A program made the position numbers and the translations under genes. A DNA stretch of 4,229 nucleotides from Naegleria gruberi (Eukaryota). The notes below the pieces were generated by a model. That model was not told the DNA's origin and did no database searches. It saw only the letters and a program-made list of their open reading frames with translations. Positions 1-4,229 of this stretch are shown here, one piece after another (the first letter of the stretch is position 1; every line of letters starts with the position of its first letter). Where the stretch lies: the NCBI GenBank assembly GCA_000004985.1, contig GG739160.1; one strand, written 5' to 3'.

Positions 1-960
1 GAATGTCTTCATATTCTGCATTGATCATTTCCCAGCCTTTCTGAACTATTACAAGATTATGCTTGAATAATTCCATTGCAATTTTGTCTTTGGAGTTATT
101 CTCATAAGTTTTGGAACGCTTGGCTATTTCTTCTTGAATCATTTCTACTTTCTTTGATGAAATCTTCTTTTTGGCAAGTGATTGACTGGCATTGGCAGTT
201 GTTTTTTCATGTTCTTTAGGAGAAAAAGCAGCTCTATACGAATCAAAAGTTGGATCCAAACGTTTTCTCATTTCATACGAGCCAGAAAAAATTATTTCAT
301 TATCAACTTGATGCATGAGAATCTTTTTGAGATAAACGAGAGTGAAAATAGTGCACATCTTGTCCTGAGTTTCGGTTAATCTTGTTCCCTCAATAACGTC
401 TCCCTCAATTTCATGAAATTGAACTGATAATTGCTTTCTCAATATGAAATTGCTGAGAAGATTACAGACGAAACAAAGCTTGTGTTGAGGAGAAAGATTA
501 TCGTACATATTTCTGAAAACAGTGTTATGTGAAAAGAAGCCACTATATTCAACAAAGACTATTCACCAAGATGATGATTAACAACCTTATTCGAAACAAG
601 TTTAAACTTACCTTCCTTTTCAGGATGAGAAACATTCAAATCTACAAAACGCTCCCAATCTCTAATAATTCGTGGAATCAACAATTTGAATAATTCACAA
701 TACTCTTCATACATTGGCAATCTCTCCAAAGGAAATGCTATAACTTTACTACACAATTCGTCCCAATCATACATGCCAGTCCTTTCGTATTTGGTGTTGA
801 GTAATTGCTCAGCCTTTGGAAGTGATTCACCCATTCCTGTGAGCCAATCCTCTAAAACTTGTTTCTTTTGACTCTCACTCATATTGGCAAAGGCTTTGAG
901 AATGTATTTAACGCAACAAATTGATTTTGAAAACTTACCCTTGAGGAATTGTGTTGACAT
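1..960 (-). CDS. Hypothetical soluble protein, 5' end in window, 3' end beyond left edge. Proposed two-exon model: exon 1 = 960..612, intron = 611..559, exon 2 = 558..1. N-terminus MSTQFLKGKFSKSICCVKYILKAF...; after the junction ...HPEKE|VFVEYSGFFSHNTVFRNMYDNLSPQHKLCFV...AEYEDI...
   Basis: ATG at 960-958 sits in an AAAAAAAATG context. The 133-aa ORF (559..960) ends at a TAG at 561-559. A second minus-strand frame is open with no stop from 562 down to position 1 (187 codons, internal Met at 508-506). It is absent from the ORF track because it has no stop and runs off the edge; I translated it by hand. The two frames differ by 1 nt and are bridged exactly by a GT-AG interval (see intron feature). 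The composition is K/E/L-rich and looks like real protein. I could not recognise a domain family from the sequence alone. Confidence 0.7.
559..611 (-). other. Putative 53-nt spliceosomal intron on the minus strand. Donor GAAG|GTAAGT at 612/611-606. Acceptor AATAG| at 560-559, where the TAG stop of the unspliced 133-aa ORF is the acceptor itself. Possible branch-like TTAAT about 20 nt upstream of the 3' splice site.
   Basis: Seen directly: the minus-strand sequence reads gaa g|gtaagtttaaacttgtttcgaataaggttgttaatcatcatcttggtgaatag|tc ttt gtt. Removing 53 nt (phase 1) rebuilds the codon G+TC=GTC and lands exactly in the only frame that stays open to the window edge. The alternative explanation is a 1-nt indel error in the assembly near 559-565. 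Confidence 0.5.
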
Positions 961-1124
961 TTTTTTTTGGTTGTTTTTTCAAGAAACTAACTCTCAAAGG
1001 AGGAACATATTGGGCTAGGCTTGTGAGACAATATTGTAAACAAAGCTACTGGAGGCTATTTTTTTCAAAGCCTTTGTTTTTCTAGGTTCATTTCAAAACA
1101 ACTAGTTTAACAAGTTTGGTTGGT

Positions 1125-1135
1125 GGTTCGATTCC
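1125..1135 (+). other. Pol III B-box / tRNA T-arm consensus 11-mer GGTTCGATTCC in intergenic DNA. It could be a tRNA-derived or SINE-like relic, and it is not a foldable tRNA.
   Basis: It is an exact match to GGTTCGANTCC. The chance expectation for a specific 11-mer in an ~8.5-kb two-strand search space is about 0.002. I could not build an acceptor stem or a T stem around it (GGTGG pairs with CCTGG at only 2 bp), and there is no clear A-box (the closest is AGCTACTGGAG near 1045). Confidence 0.2.
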
Positions 1136-1242
1136 TGGCGCTGTTAAAAATAGTTATTACTGGTGGTTTCCATTATTCATTAATTCTTTATGAGTATATT
1201 AGTTTGTTGTATCAAAGTTTGTATTAAGAAGTTAAAAAGAAG

Positions 1243-1577
1243 TTAGTGCCAATTTGGCTTATTACTGTTTTCCCGTCGAGATCTGTGTTGTTCAACAGTT
1301 CTTTCCACTTCCTTTGTGAATGCTCCTTCATGTGTATCCATCCAAAACTGGACAGCTAAATGGATGGACATAATAAGAGGTGAAATGAGTTCCAATCCTC
1401 TCACTTTGAACTTGGCAACTGAGAAAACAACCATTATTAAAACTAAAGAAGCAAACAATGATCCGGCCAATAGTTTGATTAAAATTTCAATGGTACATTC
1501 ATACAGATCTTGTACATCCGTTTTTCTAAATGTTCCTTTTAACTTTTCATGAGCAGTATGAAGAATTGCCATACTAA
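1243..1577 (-). CDS. Possible C-terminal continuation of the membrane protein in a shifted frame, which could equally be a pseudogenised tail: ...VISMAILHTAHEKLKGTFRKTDVQDLYECTIEILIKLLAGSLFASLVLIMVVFSVAKFKVRGLELISPLIMSIHLAVQFWMDTHEGAFTKEVERTVEQHRSRRENSNKPNWH*, with a TAA at 1245-1243.
   Basis: This is a 112-codon open frame (track ORF 1243..1581, GTG start overlapping the upstream TGA) on the same strand. It begins inside the stop codon of the 360-aa ORF. The upstream ORF ends in the middle of a hydrophobic helix (…LVIPLMMLIVAAL*). A 1-nt shift in the gct-gct-ttg-tga run would give a complete 23-residue helix (LVIPLMMLIVAAL-VISMAILHTA), then HEKLKGTFRK, then two more TM helices and a charged tail. 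The open-frame length and the TM periodicity both argue that this is coding. A separate eukaryotic gene starting 6 nt after another gene's stop is implausible. Confidence 0.45.
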
Positions 1578-2842
1578 TCACAAAGCAGCCACTATTAACA
1601 TCATTAGAGGAATTACCAGAGGATTAACAATATTCAAATGATATAATAAATATGAATCTTCACATATCTCTCTGATAATAATAACTAAAAAGAAACAAGC
1701 TAAGGTTGGTATGAAATGGGATTTTTCAAATAGAGAGGGAAATTGACATCTTTTTCTTATTGTTTCTTTGTTACAATTTTCAAATAAATAGTAAATCAGC
1801 CAAAGAAAGGAAGCAAATACTATGTAAAGCATTGAGCCAATCGCATCAAAATAATAAAATAGGTGTTGTTCCCATACACTTAAGCGTTGATTGTAAAGAT
1901 AAAATTTTGTTTTCTTTGTGACCCAGTAAAAAACAATTCCACTCAAAAATATACATCCTATGACAACTCTAATAAAATAGTAAATAAACATTTTTGCTTT
2001 TTGAACCAGTGCACCACATGTAGATGTATGGTTAACAAAATCAATCAGTATACTGGCCCACAATATGATTGTAGAAAATGAAATGCAAGTTATTAATCCT
2101 CCATACGAAATCAAAATGTTATGATTTGGAGGCTGTTCTGTGAAAAATACCCATCCCAAAGATAATAACCCCAATGACACAAACATATTCTTTCCTGTAA
2201 ACGAATTCTTTCGAATTTTGAATAATGGTATCACATTAAAAAACATTTTTTTCACCAGGAATAAAGCCACATAGGAAAAACTCATTTCCCATTCGAAAGT
2301 TTTCTTTTCTTCAGAATTGAAACAACAGCAACAAGTAATTTCTTTGTCTTGATGATTTTGTTCAAGGAAACCTTCATTTTCTTCACCGTCTGATTCACTT
2401 TCTGCCTCTTCAATGTTGTCTGAATTTGAAGTAGTTTGAGAAGTTCCAATATCTTTAAGTTCTATTGATCCACTATTAGATGGTGGTGCATTAGGAATTG
2501 CTAGTGTTATTGTTGATGTGGAAATGGTTTTACCTTCTGAAACTGAAGGATTATTGTTTGAAGAAGGTACATGTTTACGAACCTTTTTCTCTCTTTCATG
2601 TTTACAACATCCAAGGTAGAGTATCAGAATAATTGCACCTATTAATTGAGCAGCAATCACAATAGAATATGGAAAATAAAATAGTTGAATGCTTTCGGCA
2701 GGTTTGTCATTAATTGGATGGCATTCAAAATTTCTACTTGAAACTTCATAACAAACACTAACTGGTTGAGTTCTGTCAAAACATCCTTTGACTTGTTGGA
2801 TAACATCACGATAACTACTGATAGTAATATTCTCAGAAGGGA
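1578..2842 (-). CDS. Main body of a multi-pass membrane protein, with its 5' side interrupted by the assembly gap. Ectodomain tail ...PSENITISSYRDVIQQVKGCFDRTQPVSVCYEVSSRNFECHPINDKPAESIQLFYFPYS. TM1 IVIAAQLIGAIILILYLGCC. Then a ~110-aa acidic Ser/Thr-rich loop (…EEAESESDGEENEG…EITCCCCFNSEEKK…). Then at least 6 hydrophobic helices up to the TGA at 1580-1578.
   Basis: The ORF track lists 1578..2660 (360 aa), but the codon at 2660-2658 is GTG (plus-strand 'cac'), so the track is using alternative start codons. By hand, the same frame stays open for a further 61 codons upstream to the gap edge at 2842, with no ATG, so the 'M' at 2660 is an artefact. There is an N-glycosylation sequon (NIT) and 3 Cys in the ectodomain stub. 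KHEREKKVRK after TM1 follows the positive-inside rule. Helices include MFVSLGLLSLGWVFF, ILISYGGLITCISFSTIILWASILIDFV, MFIYYFIRVVIGCIFLSGIVFYWV, LFYYFDAIGSMLYIVFASFLWLIYYLF, FIPTLACFFLVIII and LVIPLMMLIVAAL. Confidence 0.8.
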
Positions 2843-3061
2843 NNNNNNNNNNNNNNNNNNNNNNNNNNNNNNNNNNNNNNNNNNNNNNNNNNNNNNNNNN
2901 NNNNNNNNNNNNNNNNNNNNNNNNNNNNNNNNNNNNNNNNNNNNNNNNNNNNNNNNNNNNNNNNNNNNNNNNNNNNNNNNNNNNNNNNNNNNNNNNNNNN
3001 NNNNNNNNNNNNNNNNNNNNNNNNNNNNNNNNNNNNNNNNNNNNNNNNNNNNNNNNNNNNN
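2843..3061. other. Assembly gap (219 N) lying inside the ectodomain-coding part of the membrane-protein gene.
   Basis: There is a run of n characters. Coding frames are open on both flanks on the minus strand. Confidence 0.99.
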
Positions 3062-3201
3062 CTACTCTCTTGTACAGTTAATTTTCCATACAGGTCCTTG
3101 ACATCATTTTGCCATGAACGAAGATTACAAGCAAGACAAAATGTTGTGTGAAAACCAAGAAGAAAAATAAGCAGTGCCAACAACAGCATATGTGATGACA
3201 T
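3062..3201 (-). CDS. N-terminal segment (start codon plus signal peptide) of the same membrane-protein gene: MSSHMLLLALLIFLLGFHTTFCLA|CNLRSWQNDVKDLYGKLTVQES..., running into the N gap.
   Basis: ATG at 3201-3199 in a cataaaaATG context. It has a classic n/h/c signal-peptide layout with a predicted cleavage after CLA. It is on the same strand and orientation as the ORF that resumes at 2842, and the gap is only 219 nt of N's. There is a TATAAAAG element 50 nt upstream. The link to the downstream ORF is an inference because the true gap length and frame are unknown. Confidence 0.65.
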
Positions 3202-3607: not shown

Positions 3608-4229
3608 ATGGATTTTCAAAAGGCTGCAGCCAAGTTGAAGGAACGAGGCAATGAACACTTTAAAAAGAATGAATTATCGGAGGCTATTAAATGTTATCAA
3701 CAAGCCTTTGAACATGATGAAGATGCCTTCTTTAAAACAAACTTGGCTCTTTGTTATATTAAATTAAAACAATATGAGAAGGCTACGGAGGAGTGTAAAT
3801 CTGCAATCAAGTTGAATCCAAAGTTTGTAAAGGCTTATTTCTTGTTGGGAGAATGTCATTTGAATTGTTTGAATTATGAGCAAGCTGAGAGTGCTTATTT
3901 GAAAGCTGAAGTATTGGCTAAGGAATTACATAATACATCCAAATCTATATTGCTGAATATTTATAAAGGAGTTGATAGATCGAGAGCAAGGAGATATGAG
4001 AAACAAGAACAGGAGAGACAATCAGTAGTTGCAGAATTGAAAAAGTATGTCGAAAAGACGATGGACAATTATGAAAATATGGGAATGGTCAAATCATCAA
4101 CTGAAAGAGAAGAGTTTAATCTGAAAAAGTTTCAATTAGAGTCCTTCTTTGAACAGAATTTGCATCCACACAAGGAAACTGAAGTCCCAGATGTTTTGTG
4201 TTGTAAAATAACCTATACTATTATGAGAG
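3608..4229 (+). CDS. CHIP: CHIP/STUB1-type E3 ubiquitin ligase (TPR + U-box co-chaperone), 5' end complete, 3' end beyond the window. MDFQKAAAKLKERGNEHFKKNELSEAIKCYQQAF…TNLALCYIKLKQYEKATEECKSAIKLNPKFVKAYFLLGECHLNCLNYEQAESAYLKAEVLAKE…RRYEKQEQERQSVVAELKKYVEK…EVPDVLCCKITYTIMR
   Basis: I translated this by hand. The frame is open for 207 codons from the ATG at 3608 (preceded by an in-frame TAA at 3602-3604, context ttaaaaaATGg) to the window end. It is missing from the ORF track because it has no stop. It contains three TPR motifs that align with human CHIP (TNRALCYLKMQQHEQA / [33 protein letters not shown]), then a charged coiled-coil segment, then the first residues of the U-box (human DIPDYLCGKISFELM). 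The human comparison is from memory and not from a search. Confidence 0.85.
   Translation, partial: MDFQKAAAKLKERGNEHFKKNELSEAIKCYQQAFEHDEDAFFKTNLALCYIKLKQYEKATEECKSAIKLNPKFVKAYFLLGECHLNCLNYEQAESAYLKAEVLAKELHNTSKSILLNIYKGVDRSRARRYEKQEQERQSVVAELKKYVEKTMDNYENMGMVKSSTEREEFNLKKFQLESFFEQNLHPHKETEVPDVLCCKITYTIMR

What the first reader, a model, noticed from the sequence alone, without database searches (positions are those of the whole stretch)
1560..1600. Membrane-protein ORF stops in the middle of a helix, and a 112-codon open frame shifted by one nucleotide continues with more TM helices: frameshift, indel error or pseudogene
The A-frame ends …NPLVIPLMMLIVAAL-TGA, which is 13 hydrophobic residues with no cytoplasmic end. 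The B-frame opens inside that same TGA (ttG TGa ttagtATG…) and encodes VISMAILHTA-HEKLKGTFRK, then two further TM helices, then a charged tail ending at TAA 1245-1243. A 1-nt change in the tttg run restores one continuous protein. The window already contains an N gap, which suggests a draft assembly. I looked for a GT-AG intron that would bridge the two frames with the right phase and found none.
Basis: partly seen in the sequence, partly recalled or inferred. Interest (0 to 1): 0.55.

Follow-up and report, generated by a model that had tools for sequence, protein, structure and literature searches.

The report
Indel-broken Naegleria membrane protein gene
The two reading frames belong to one amoeba (Naegleria) membrane-protein gene that is split in this copy by a small 10-base net deletion, because a 99%-identical independent assembly carries the same gene as one uninterrupted frame; this is an ordinary broken allele or draft-assembly flaw.

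Summary
On the minus strand a long membrane-protein frame stops at TGA 1580-1578 after ...MMLIVAAL. A 112-codon frame shifted by -1 starts at GTG 1581 and runs to TAA 1245-1243.

The window is Naegleria-like. Its CHIP neighbour is 68% identical to the N. fowleri protein, and GC is 33%.

An independent metagenome assembly (L003/L004, run ERR1078381) matches window 1842..1 at 98.9%. There the two frames form one continuous ORF: ...MMLIVAAYFYHKISMAILHTAHEK...

The only coding difference that is not synonymous is at the junction. The window has TGTG (1582-1579) where L003 has ACTTTTATCACAAA, a net loss of 10 nt. The central 5-mer is inverted (ATCAC versus GTGAT). All five other coding differences are synonymous, two in frame A and three in frame B.

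So the protein normally continues about 115 residues: two more TM helices and a charged tail. This copy is frame-broken.

All have poor donors. One is only 26 nt and the other two cover sequence that scores as coding. No slippery site exists, and TGA read-through ends after 12 codons.

These tools cannot tell whether the lesion is real (my lean) or an assembly artefact. The finding is ordinary and of low interest.

The parts
3062..3201 (-). 5' end of the membrane-protein gene. ATG is at 3201-3199, followed by a signal-peptide-like N-terminus (MSSHMLLLALLIFLLGFHTTFCLA...) that runs into the N gap.
2843..3061 (.). Run of 219 N (scaffold gap) inside the extracellular part of the same gene. The reading frame across it cannot be known.
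1581..2840 (-). Frame A, 420 codons. It encodes a Cys-containing ectodomain, one TM helix, an acidic/Ser-rich linker, then about seven hydrophobic helices ending ...NPLVIPLMMLIVAAL.
   Evidence: no Pfam family; no homologue in 1.84e9 representatives
1578..1580 (-). Premature TGA that ends frame A. It is created by the lesion; the intact allele reads ...GCT TAC TTT TAT CAC AAA ATT AGT... here.
1579..1582 (-). The lesion. TGTG stands where the intact allele (L003 261-274) has ACTTTTATCACAAA, a net loss of 10 nt that shifts the frame by -1.
1577..1584 (-). TTTGTGAT is the exact reverse complement of L003 267-274 (ATCACAAA). Best description: inverted 5-mer ATCAC/GTGAT with a 5-nt deletion on each side.
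   Evidence: chance about 0.008; no stable hairpin
1246..1581 (-). Frame B, 112 codons: the rest of the same protein. It encodes a juxtamembrane basic stretch, one strong hydrophobic (TM-like) segment, a second weaker one, and a charged tail. Stop TAA is at 1245-1243.
   Evidence: 111 of 112 residues identical to the L003 ORF and 3 of 3 substitutions synonymous
1574..1599 (-). Candidate intron 1: 26 nt here and 36 nt in L003, GTTAAT...GATTAG. Right phase, but too short and without G at +5. Considered unlikely.
   Evidence: PMC8296547
1543..1592 (-). Candidate intron 2: 50 nt, GTGGCT...GAAAAG. Poor donor and acceptor, and it covers sequence that scores as coding in frame B. Considered unlikely.
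1526..1581 (-). Candidate intron 3: 56 nt, GTGATT...ATTTAG. Its donor exists only in the window allele because the lesion creates it. Considered unlikely.
559..611 (-). Reference example of a real intron at this locus. It lies in the neighbouring zf-MYND gene: 53 nt, GTAAGT...AATAG.

Best explanation
Frames A and B are the two halves of one Naegleria-specific multi-pass membrane-protein gene. In its intact form, seen in an independent 99%-identical assembly, the gene is a single ORF. Its seventh core helix ends ...LIVAAYFY-HK and continues into ISMAILHTAHEKLKGTFRK, two more TM helices and a charged tail.

In the window copy a small complex rearrangement has replaced 14 nt by 4 nt, a net loss of 10 nt at 1582-1579. 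It is best described as an inverted 5-mer flanked by two 5-nt deletions. The change shifts the frame by -1 and creates TGA 1580-1578.

Read as given, this copy would make a protein truncated inside or at the end of that helix, lacking the last ~115 residues. That is a null or truncated allele, or an incipient pseudogene.

I lean to the lesion being real in the sequenced genome, because its form is not that of a base-calling slip. That step is inference. Shown here: the intact allele, the exact lesion, and purifying selection on both halves. Inferred: that the lesion is biological and that no splicing rescues it.

The broader claim, one gene broken by an indel whether real or artefactual, I hold at about 0.85.
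For: 1. An independent assembly was retrieved with the neighbouring ORF. L003 (ENA, MEGAHIT) and L004 (Logan) come from run ERR1078381 and are identical to each other over 1363 nt. They match window 1842..1 at 98.9%.
2. At the junction L003 reads GCTGCTT-ACTTTTATCACAAA-ATTAG where the window reads GCTGCTT-TGTG-ATTAG. The L003 ORF is continuous for 202 codons up to the same TAA.
3. Translations are identical on both sides: 86 of 87 residues in A and 111 of 112 in B. The only differences are the junction residues.
4. All five coding substitutions are at third positions and synonymous (P about 0.002; frame B alone 3 of 3, P about 0.017).
5. The codon-usage log-odds favour frame B from 1573 downward (+6.2 over 9 codons at 1573-1544) and frame A upstream of 1582.
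6. The intact sequence gives a normal 21-residue helix with an aromatic and basic end (YFYHK). This explains why the window's frame A appears to stop mid-helix.
7. The window's replacement bases contain two G that are absent from the L003 segment. They form an 8-nt exact reverse complement of it (chance about 0.008). That is unlike a homopolymer or base-calling error.
Against: - No reads from the sequenced strain could be inspected, so a consensus, cloning or assembly artefact is not excluded. The window is a draft with a 219-N gap 1.26 kb away.
- No relaxation of constraint is visible (5 of 5 synonymous). If the lesion is real it is young, or heterozygous with an intact second allele.
- Only one independent data set (one sequencing run) shows the intact form.
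- No outgroup exists: there are no homologues in 1.84e9 representatives. Polarity therefore rests on ORF integrity alone.
- The suggested hairpin mechanism has no thermodynamic support (-0.5 kcal/mol, no better than shuffles).
Confidence: 0.55

Rival explanations
1. The lesion is the same, but it is an artefact of the draft assembly (consensus, cloning or mis-join error). The organism's real gene is intact, as in L003.
For: The window is a scaffolded draft with an N gap. The only other assembly of this locus is intact. Both halves show purifying selection with no sign of decay.
Against: The difference is not a homopolymer or single-base error. It replaces 14 nt by 4 nt, includes bases absent from the intact version, and has an inverted 5-8-mer. 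The flanks are clean, and the site lies well inside a contig, 1.26 kb from the gap.
Confidence: 0.3
2. The indel lies inside a very small spliceosomal intron present in both alleles. This would be candidate 1 (26 nt here, 36 nt in L003, GTTAAT...TTAG) or candidate 2 (50 or 60 nt, GTGGCT...AAAAG). Both alleles would then give the same mRNA and the gene would be intact.
For: GT..AG intervals of the right phase exist. Any interval that restores the frame here is necessarily a multiple of 3 in L003, so L003's open frame does not exclude it. The only length difference in about 600 coding nt falls inside these intervals.
Against: - The three verified introns at Naegleria loci are 53, 52 and 94 nt, with donors GTAAGT, GTAAGT and GTTAGT. 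The candidates have GTTAAT and GTGGCT, with no G at +5.
- 26 nt is below the 30-nt minimum that Herman et al. set for N. fowleri from predicted genes. The mean N. gruberi intron is 203 bp (PMC8296547).
- The candidate 2 acceptor AAAAG lacks a pyrimidine tract.
- Segment 1573-1544 scores as coding in frame B, and 1599-1582 scores as coding in frame A.
- In L003 the interval encodes a sensible helix end.
Confidence: 0.08
3. The lesion created a new donor (TT|GTGATT at 1581). A 56-nt intron (1581-1526) is now spliced out, giving ...IVAAL-KTDVQ... This would be an in-frame protein lacking about 23 residues but keeping the last two helices.
For: The phase is right, the size is like the local 52-53-nt introns, the acceptor is TTTAG, and the predicted helix end is tidy.
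Against: The donor GTGATT lacks G at +5. The interval is coding in the intact allele and scores as coding. Creation of an intron from coding sequence is rare (established knowledge). No RNA evidence is available.
Confidence: 0.03
4. The frames are joined by recoding: a programmed -1 ribosomal frameshift, or TGA read as sense. Alternatively, frame A ends natively at TGA and B is a separate or chance ORF.
For: The frames overlap by about 15 codons (1623-1578), which is the geometry a frameshift site needs.
Against: - There is no X XXY YYZ heptamer in frame A within the overlap.
- Reading through TGA gives 12 codons and then TAA, never reaching frame B.
- There are 0 in-frame TGA codons among 855 confident codons.
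- The intact allele needs no recoding.
- Frame B is under purifying selection and contiguous with A in L003.
- The chance of such an open frame is about 7e-4.
Confidence: 0.02

Closest known systems
Frameshift-disrupted gene (unitary pseudogene or null allele) in a eukaryotic genome
   Same: A small indel whose length is not a multiple of three splits an otherwise intact ORF into two overlapping frames. An intact allele exists in a near-identical genome.
   Different: No decay is visible yet, because all other differences are synonymous. The lesion is a complex micro-inversion with deletions rather than a simple slip. Whether it is real has not been verified with reads.
Draft-assembly indel error
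   Same: It produces exactly this picture of two abutting frames in a scaffold that also has N gaps.
   Different: Typical errors are 1-nt homopolymer miscounts. Here 14 nt are replaced by 4 different nt.
Short spliceosomal introns of Naegleria (52-94 nt, GT[A/T]AGT...[T/C]AG, as seen at this locus and in N. fowleri CHIP)
   Same: GT..AG intervals of the right phase span the junction.
   Different: The donors do not fit. One candidate is shorter than any intron allowed for in Naegleria. The interval is coding in the intact allele.
Heterozygosity and mosaic haplotypes reported for Naegleria (Fritz-Laylin et al. 2010, as cited in PMC9928731)
   Same: The divergence between the window and L003 is patchy: 10 differences in 1046-1746 and none in 1-1045. 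A broken allele beside an intact one would fit a heterozygous diploid.
   Different: It is not known whether L003 is the second haplotype of the same strain or a different strain.

Membership tests
Frameshifted allele / pseudogene | An intact, continuous homologous ORF exists elsewhere | tested here: met
   L003/L004: 202 codons continuous across the junction
Frameshifted allele / pseudogene | The lesion is an indel whose length is not a multiple of 3 and it creates a premature stop | tested here: met
   14 nt replaced by 4 nt, net -10; TGA at 1580-1578
Frameshifted allele / pseudogene | Relaxed constraint downstream of the lesion | tested here: not met
   3 of 3 substitutions in frame B are synonymous. 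With only three substitutions this means young or heterozygous; it does not mean the copy is functional.
Frameshifted allele / pseudogene | The lesion is present in the organism's DNA (reads or resequencing) | not testable with these tools
   No reads from the source strain are available. The window-type frame-B ORF is not on record as a separate gene.
Assembly or sequencing error | Typical error signature (single-base or homopolymer indel, low-quality context) | tested here: not met
   Complex replacement with an inverted 8-mer
Spliceosomal GT-AG intron (Naegleria type) | GT..AG boundaries that restore the frame | tested here: met
   Three candidates of 26, 50 and 56 nt
Spliceosomal GT-AG intron (Naegleria type) | Donor like GT[A/T]AGT and a length in the local range (52-94 nt; 30 nt or more) | tested here: not met
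   Candidate donors are GTTAAT, GTGGCT and GTGATT, against GTAAGT, GTAAGT and GTTAGT in three verified introns. The 26-nt candidate is below the 30-nt floor (PMC8296547).
Spliceosomal GT-AG intron (Naegleria type) | The interval is non-coding | tested here: not met
   It is in frame and stop-free in L003. The codon score favours coding. The test is weak because the segments are short.
Spliceosomal GT-AG intron (Naegleria type) | Spliced transcript observed | not testable with these tools
   No RNA data are accessible.
Programmed -1 ribosomal frameshift | Slippery heptamer X XXY YYZ in the overlap | tested here: not met
   None found in 1640-1560
Programmed -1 ribosomal frameshift | The frameshift is conserved in relatives | tested here: not met
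   The relative has a single frame.
Stop-codon reassignment or read-through (TGA as sense) | Read-through continues into the downstream coding sequence, and in-frame TGA occurs elsewhere | tested here: not met
   12 codons and then TAA; 0 TGA in 855 codons
Any described membrane-protein family (Pfam, solved folds) | Significant profile or fold match | tested here: not met
   Pfam gave 0 families at E<=1 for A and B. phmmer gave 0 hits in 1.84e9 proteins. The AF2 single-sequence model has pLDDT 62.7, and the best Foldseek PDB hit has E=1.1.

The most novel reading that the evidence does not exclude
The most novel reading not excluded is that the 10-nt length difference sits in an ultra-short intron with a non-consensus donor: 26 nt here, 36 nt in the other allele, GTTAAT...TTAG. 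That would be far below any intron size considered for Naegleria.

A milder novel reading is that the lesion is a genuine, naturally segregating micro-inversion-plus-deletion null allele of a genus-specific orphan 10-TM protein in a heterozygous amoeba.
Probability: 0.06. Interest if true: 0.45.

Novelty: already known. Interest (0 to 1): 0.15.

Why it matters
The practical value is for annotation.
- The gene should be modelled as one ORF of roughly 600 or more codons, including the gap, with a disrupted or low-quality flag. It should not be modelled as a truncated protein plus a stray ORF, nor with an invented intron.
- If the lesion is real, it is a small example of a loss-of-function allele arising by a complex micro-rearrangement in a lineage-specific membrane protein of Naegleria. 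It would also hint at allelic heterogeneity in that genome.
- There is no wider biological consequence.

Tried and rejected
- Pfam on frames A and B: nothing.
- Word-indexed search with joined A+B: nothing.
- Exhaustive phmmer of frame A against 1.84e9 representatives: 0 hits. Comparison with orthologues beyond strain level was therefore impossible.
- Synteny through the CHIP neighbour: the N. fowleri locus L001 and the metagenome contig L002 carry other neighbours, and tblastn found no match to A, B or gene 1.
- Search with the full zf-MYND neighbour protein: nothing.
- Look-ups of the frame-B ORF as a separately called gene (ATG start and GTG start): not on record.
- Two JGI metagenome scans, one with a junction pattern that allows either allele and one with a conserved 29-mer: no hits.
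- PRJEB11402 is not mentioned in the paper library.
The frame-A TM part alone gave pLDDT 62.7 with no meaningful PDB fold match. The afdb50 library was not available.
- tRNA and Rfam scans of the window: nothing.
- Hairpin-mediated mechanism for the micro-inversion: no stable DNA hairpin.
- Programmed frameshift and TGA read-through: rejected.

Full report
**Observation.** The window (4229 nt, 32.9% GC) carries three eukaryote-type genes.
- A zf-MYND-type gene on the minus strand (960 to 1) with a 53-nt GTAAGT...AATAG intron at 611-559.
- A membrane-protein gene on the minus strand, with ATG at 3201 and a 219-N gap at 2843-3061.
- A CHIP-like TPR gene on the plus strand from 3608.

In the membrane gene, frame A is open from the gap to TGA 1580-1578 and ends ...NIVNPLVIPLMMLIVAAL. 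Frame B (A minus 1) is stop-free from 1623, has GTG at 1581-1579 overlapping the TGA, and runs 112 codons to TAA 1245-1243. It contains one strong and one weaker hydrophobic segment and a charged tail. A 126-codon open run in a given frame has probability about 7e-4.

**Source organism.** The CHIP fragment's best hit is Naegleria fowleri FDP41_003361 at 68% identity. The GC content equals the 33% reported for N. gruberi NEG-M (PMC8296547). I infer a Naegleria of the gruberi type. Nothing in the databases names it.

**The protein is an orphan.** It has no Pfam family. The word-indexed search with A+B found nothing, and the exhaustive phmmer of frame A against 1.84e9 representatives found nothing. 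The N. fowleri CHIP locus is not syntenic. Deep orthologue comparison was therefore impossible.

**Decisive evidence.** Looking up the exact 133-aa product of the neighbouring gene's first exon retrieved two contigs from one metagenome run (ERR1078381). L003 is an ENA/MEGAHIT contig of 2724 nt and L004 is a Logan contig of 1363 nt. They are identical to each other. L003 matches window 1842..1 at 98.9%, with 10 mismatches and 3 gap openings.
- At the junction, L003 reads GTGGCTGCTT-ACTTTTATCACAAA-ATTAGTATGG where the window reads GTGGCTGCTT-TGTG-ATTAGTATGG.
- The extra 10 nt put A and B in one frame. The L003 ORF is 202 codons, continuous from the contig end to the same TAA, and reads ...NPLVIPLMMLIVAAYFYHKISMAILHTAHEKLKGTFRK....
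- Outside the junction the two translations are identical.
- The five coding substitutions (two in A, three in B) are all third-position and synonymous (P about 0.002 overall and about 0.017 for B alone).

Frame B is therefore real coding sequence of the same gene. The intact protein ends that helix normally, with 21 hydrophobic residues closed by YFY-HK. That explains why the window's frame A seems to stop mid-helix.

**Nature of the lesion.** The best description is GCTGC-[TTACT]-TTT-ATCAC-[AAAAT]-TAG in L003 against GCTGC-TTT-GTGAT-TAG in the window. This is an inverted 5-mer with a 5-nt deletion on each side.
- The 8-mer TTTGTGAT (window 1584-1577) is the exact reverse complement of L003 267-274. 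A random 4-mer replacement gives such a match in about 0.8% of trials.
- The L003 segment does not form a stable DNA hairpin (-0.5 kcal/mol, no better than shuffles). I offer no mechanism beyond "complex micro-rearrangement".
- The window's bases include G residues absent from the long form, so this is not a collapsed consensus or a homopolymer miscount.

For these reasons I lean towards a real allele (0.55) over an assembly artefact (0.30). Without reads from the source strain, the two cannot be separated.

**Introns.**
- 26 nt (1599-1574, GTTAAT...GATTAG)
- 50 nt (1592-1543, GTGGCT...GAAAAG)
- 56 nt (1581-1526, GTGATT...ATTTAG)

Any interval that restores the frame here is automatically a multiple of three in L003, so L003's open frame alone does not exclude the first two. 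Several points count against them.
- The three introns I could verify are 53 nt (GTAAGT), 52 nt (GTAAGT, L003 2137-2188) and 94 nt (GTTAGT, N. fowleri CHIP). None of the candidates has AGT at positions +4 to +6.
- 26 nt is below the 30-nt floor used for N. fowleri, and far below the 203-bp mean for N. gruberi (PMC8296547).
- The codon log-odds favour frame A at 1599-1582 and frame B at 1573-1544.
- The 56-nt candidate's donor exists only because of the lesion.

Together I give the intron readings about 0.1.

**Recoding.** There is no X XXY YYZ heptamer in the overlap. Reading TGA as sense gives 12 codons and then TAA. No in-frame TGA occurs in 855 confident codons. The relative needs no recoding. 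This reading is rejected.

**Comparison and verdict.** This is an ordinary indel-broken gene, either a null or truncated allele or a draft error, in a lineage-specific membrane protein. Novelty is nil as a kind of feature. The interest is mostly for annotation. The only mildly unusual points are the micro-inversion signature, the patchy divergence between the two assemblies, and the orphan status of the protein.

Noticed in passing
window 1-1842 versus L003: Divergence is patchy. All 10 difference events lie in 1046-1746, and there are none in 1-1045. About 7.6 synonymous differences would be expected in the gene-1 coding sequence at the membrane gene's rate (P(0) about 5e-4). This looks like a haplotype or recombination mosaic, consistent with the heterozygosity reported for Naegleria.
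   Followed up: partly
window 1125-1135 (+): GGTTCGATTCC, a tRNA T-arm-like motif, lies in the intergenic region between the two minus-strand genes. ARAGORN and Rfam find no tRNA or other RNA there. It may be a tRNA-derived remnant or chance.
   Followed up: partly
window 2843-3061: A 219-N scaffold gap interrupts the extracellular domain of the same membrane gene, so the gene model is incomplete whatever happens at the frameshift.
   Followed up: no
window 1243-3201 (-): The membrane protein has a signal peptide, a Cys-containing ectodomain, one TM helix, an acidic/Ser-rich linker and about nine TM helices. It has no detectable homologue in 1.84e9 representative proteins, not even in N. fowleri. 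It is a genus- or species-level orphan.
   Followed up: partly
window 1-960 (-) and L003 892-2670: The neighbouring gene encodes a 557-aa protein with a C-terminal zf-MYND domain and two near-identical-size introns (53 and 52 nt, both GTAAGT). The word-indexed search found no homologues.
   Followed up: partly
window 3608-4229 (+): An intron-less 5' part of a CHIP/STUB1-like E3 ligase (TPR, with the start of the U-box) is transcribed divergently from the membrane gene. The N. fowleri orthologue has a 94-nt intron just before the U-box and different neighbours.
   Followed up: partly
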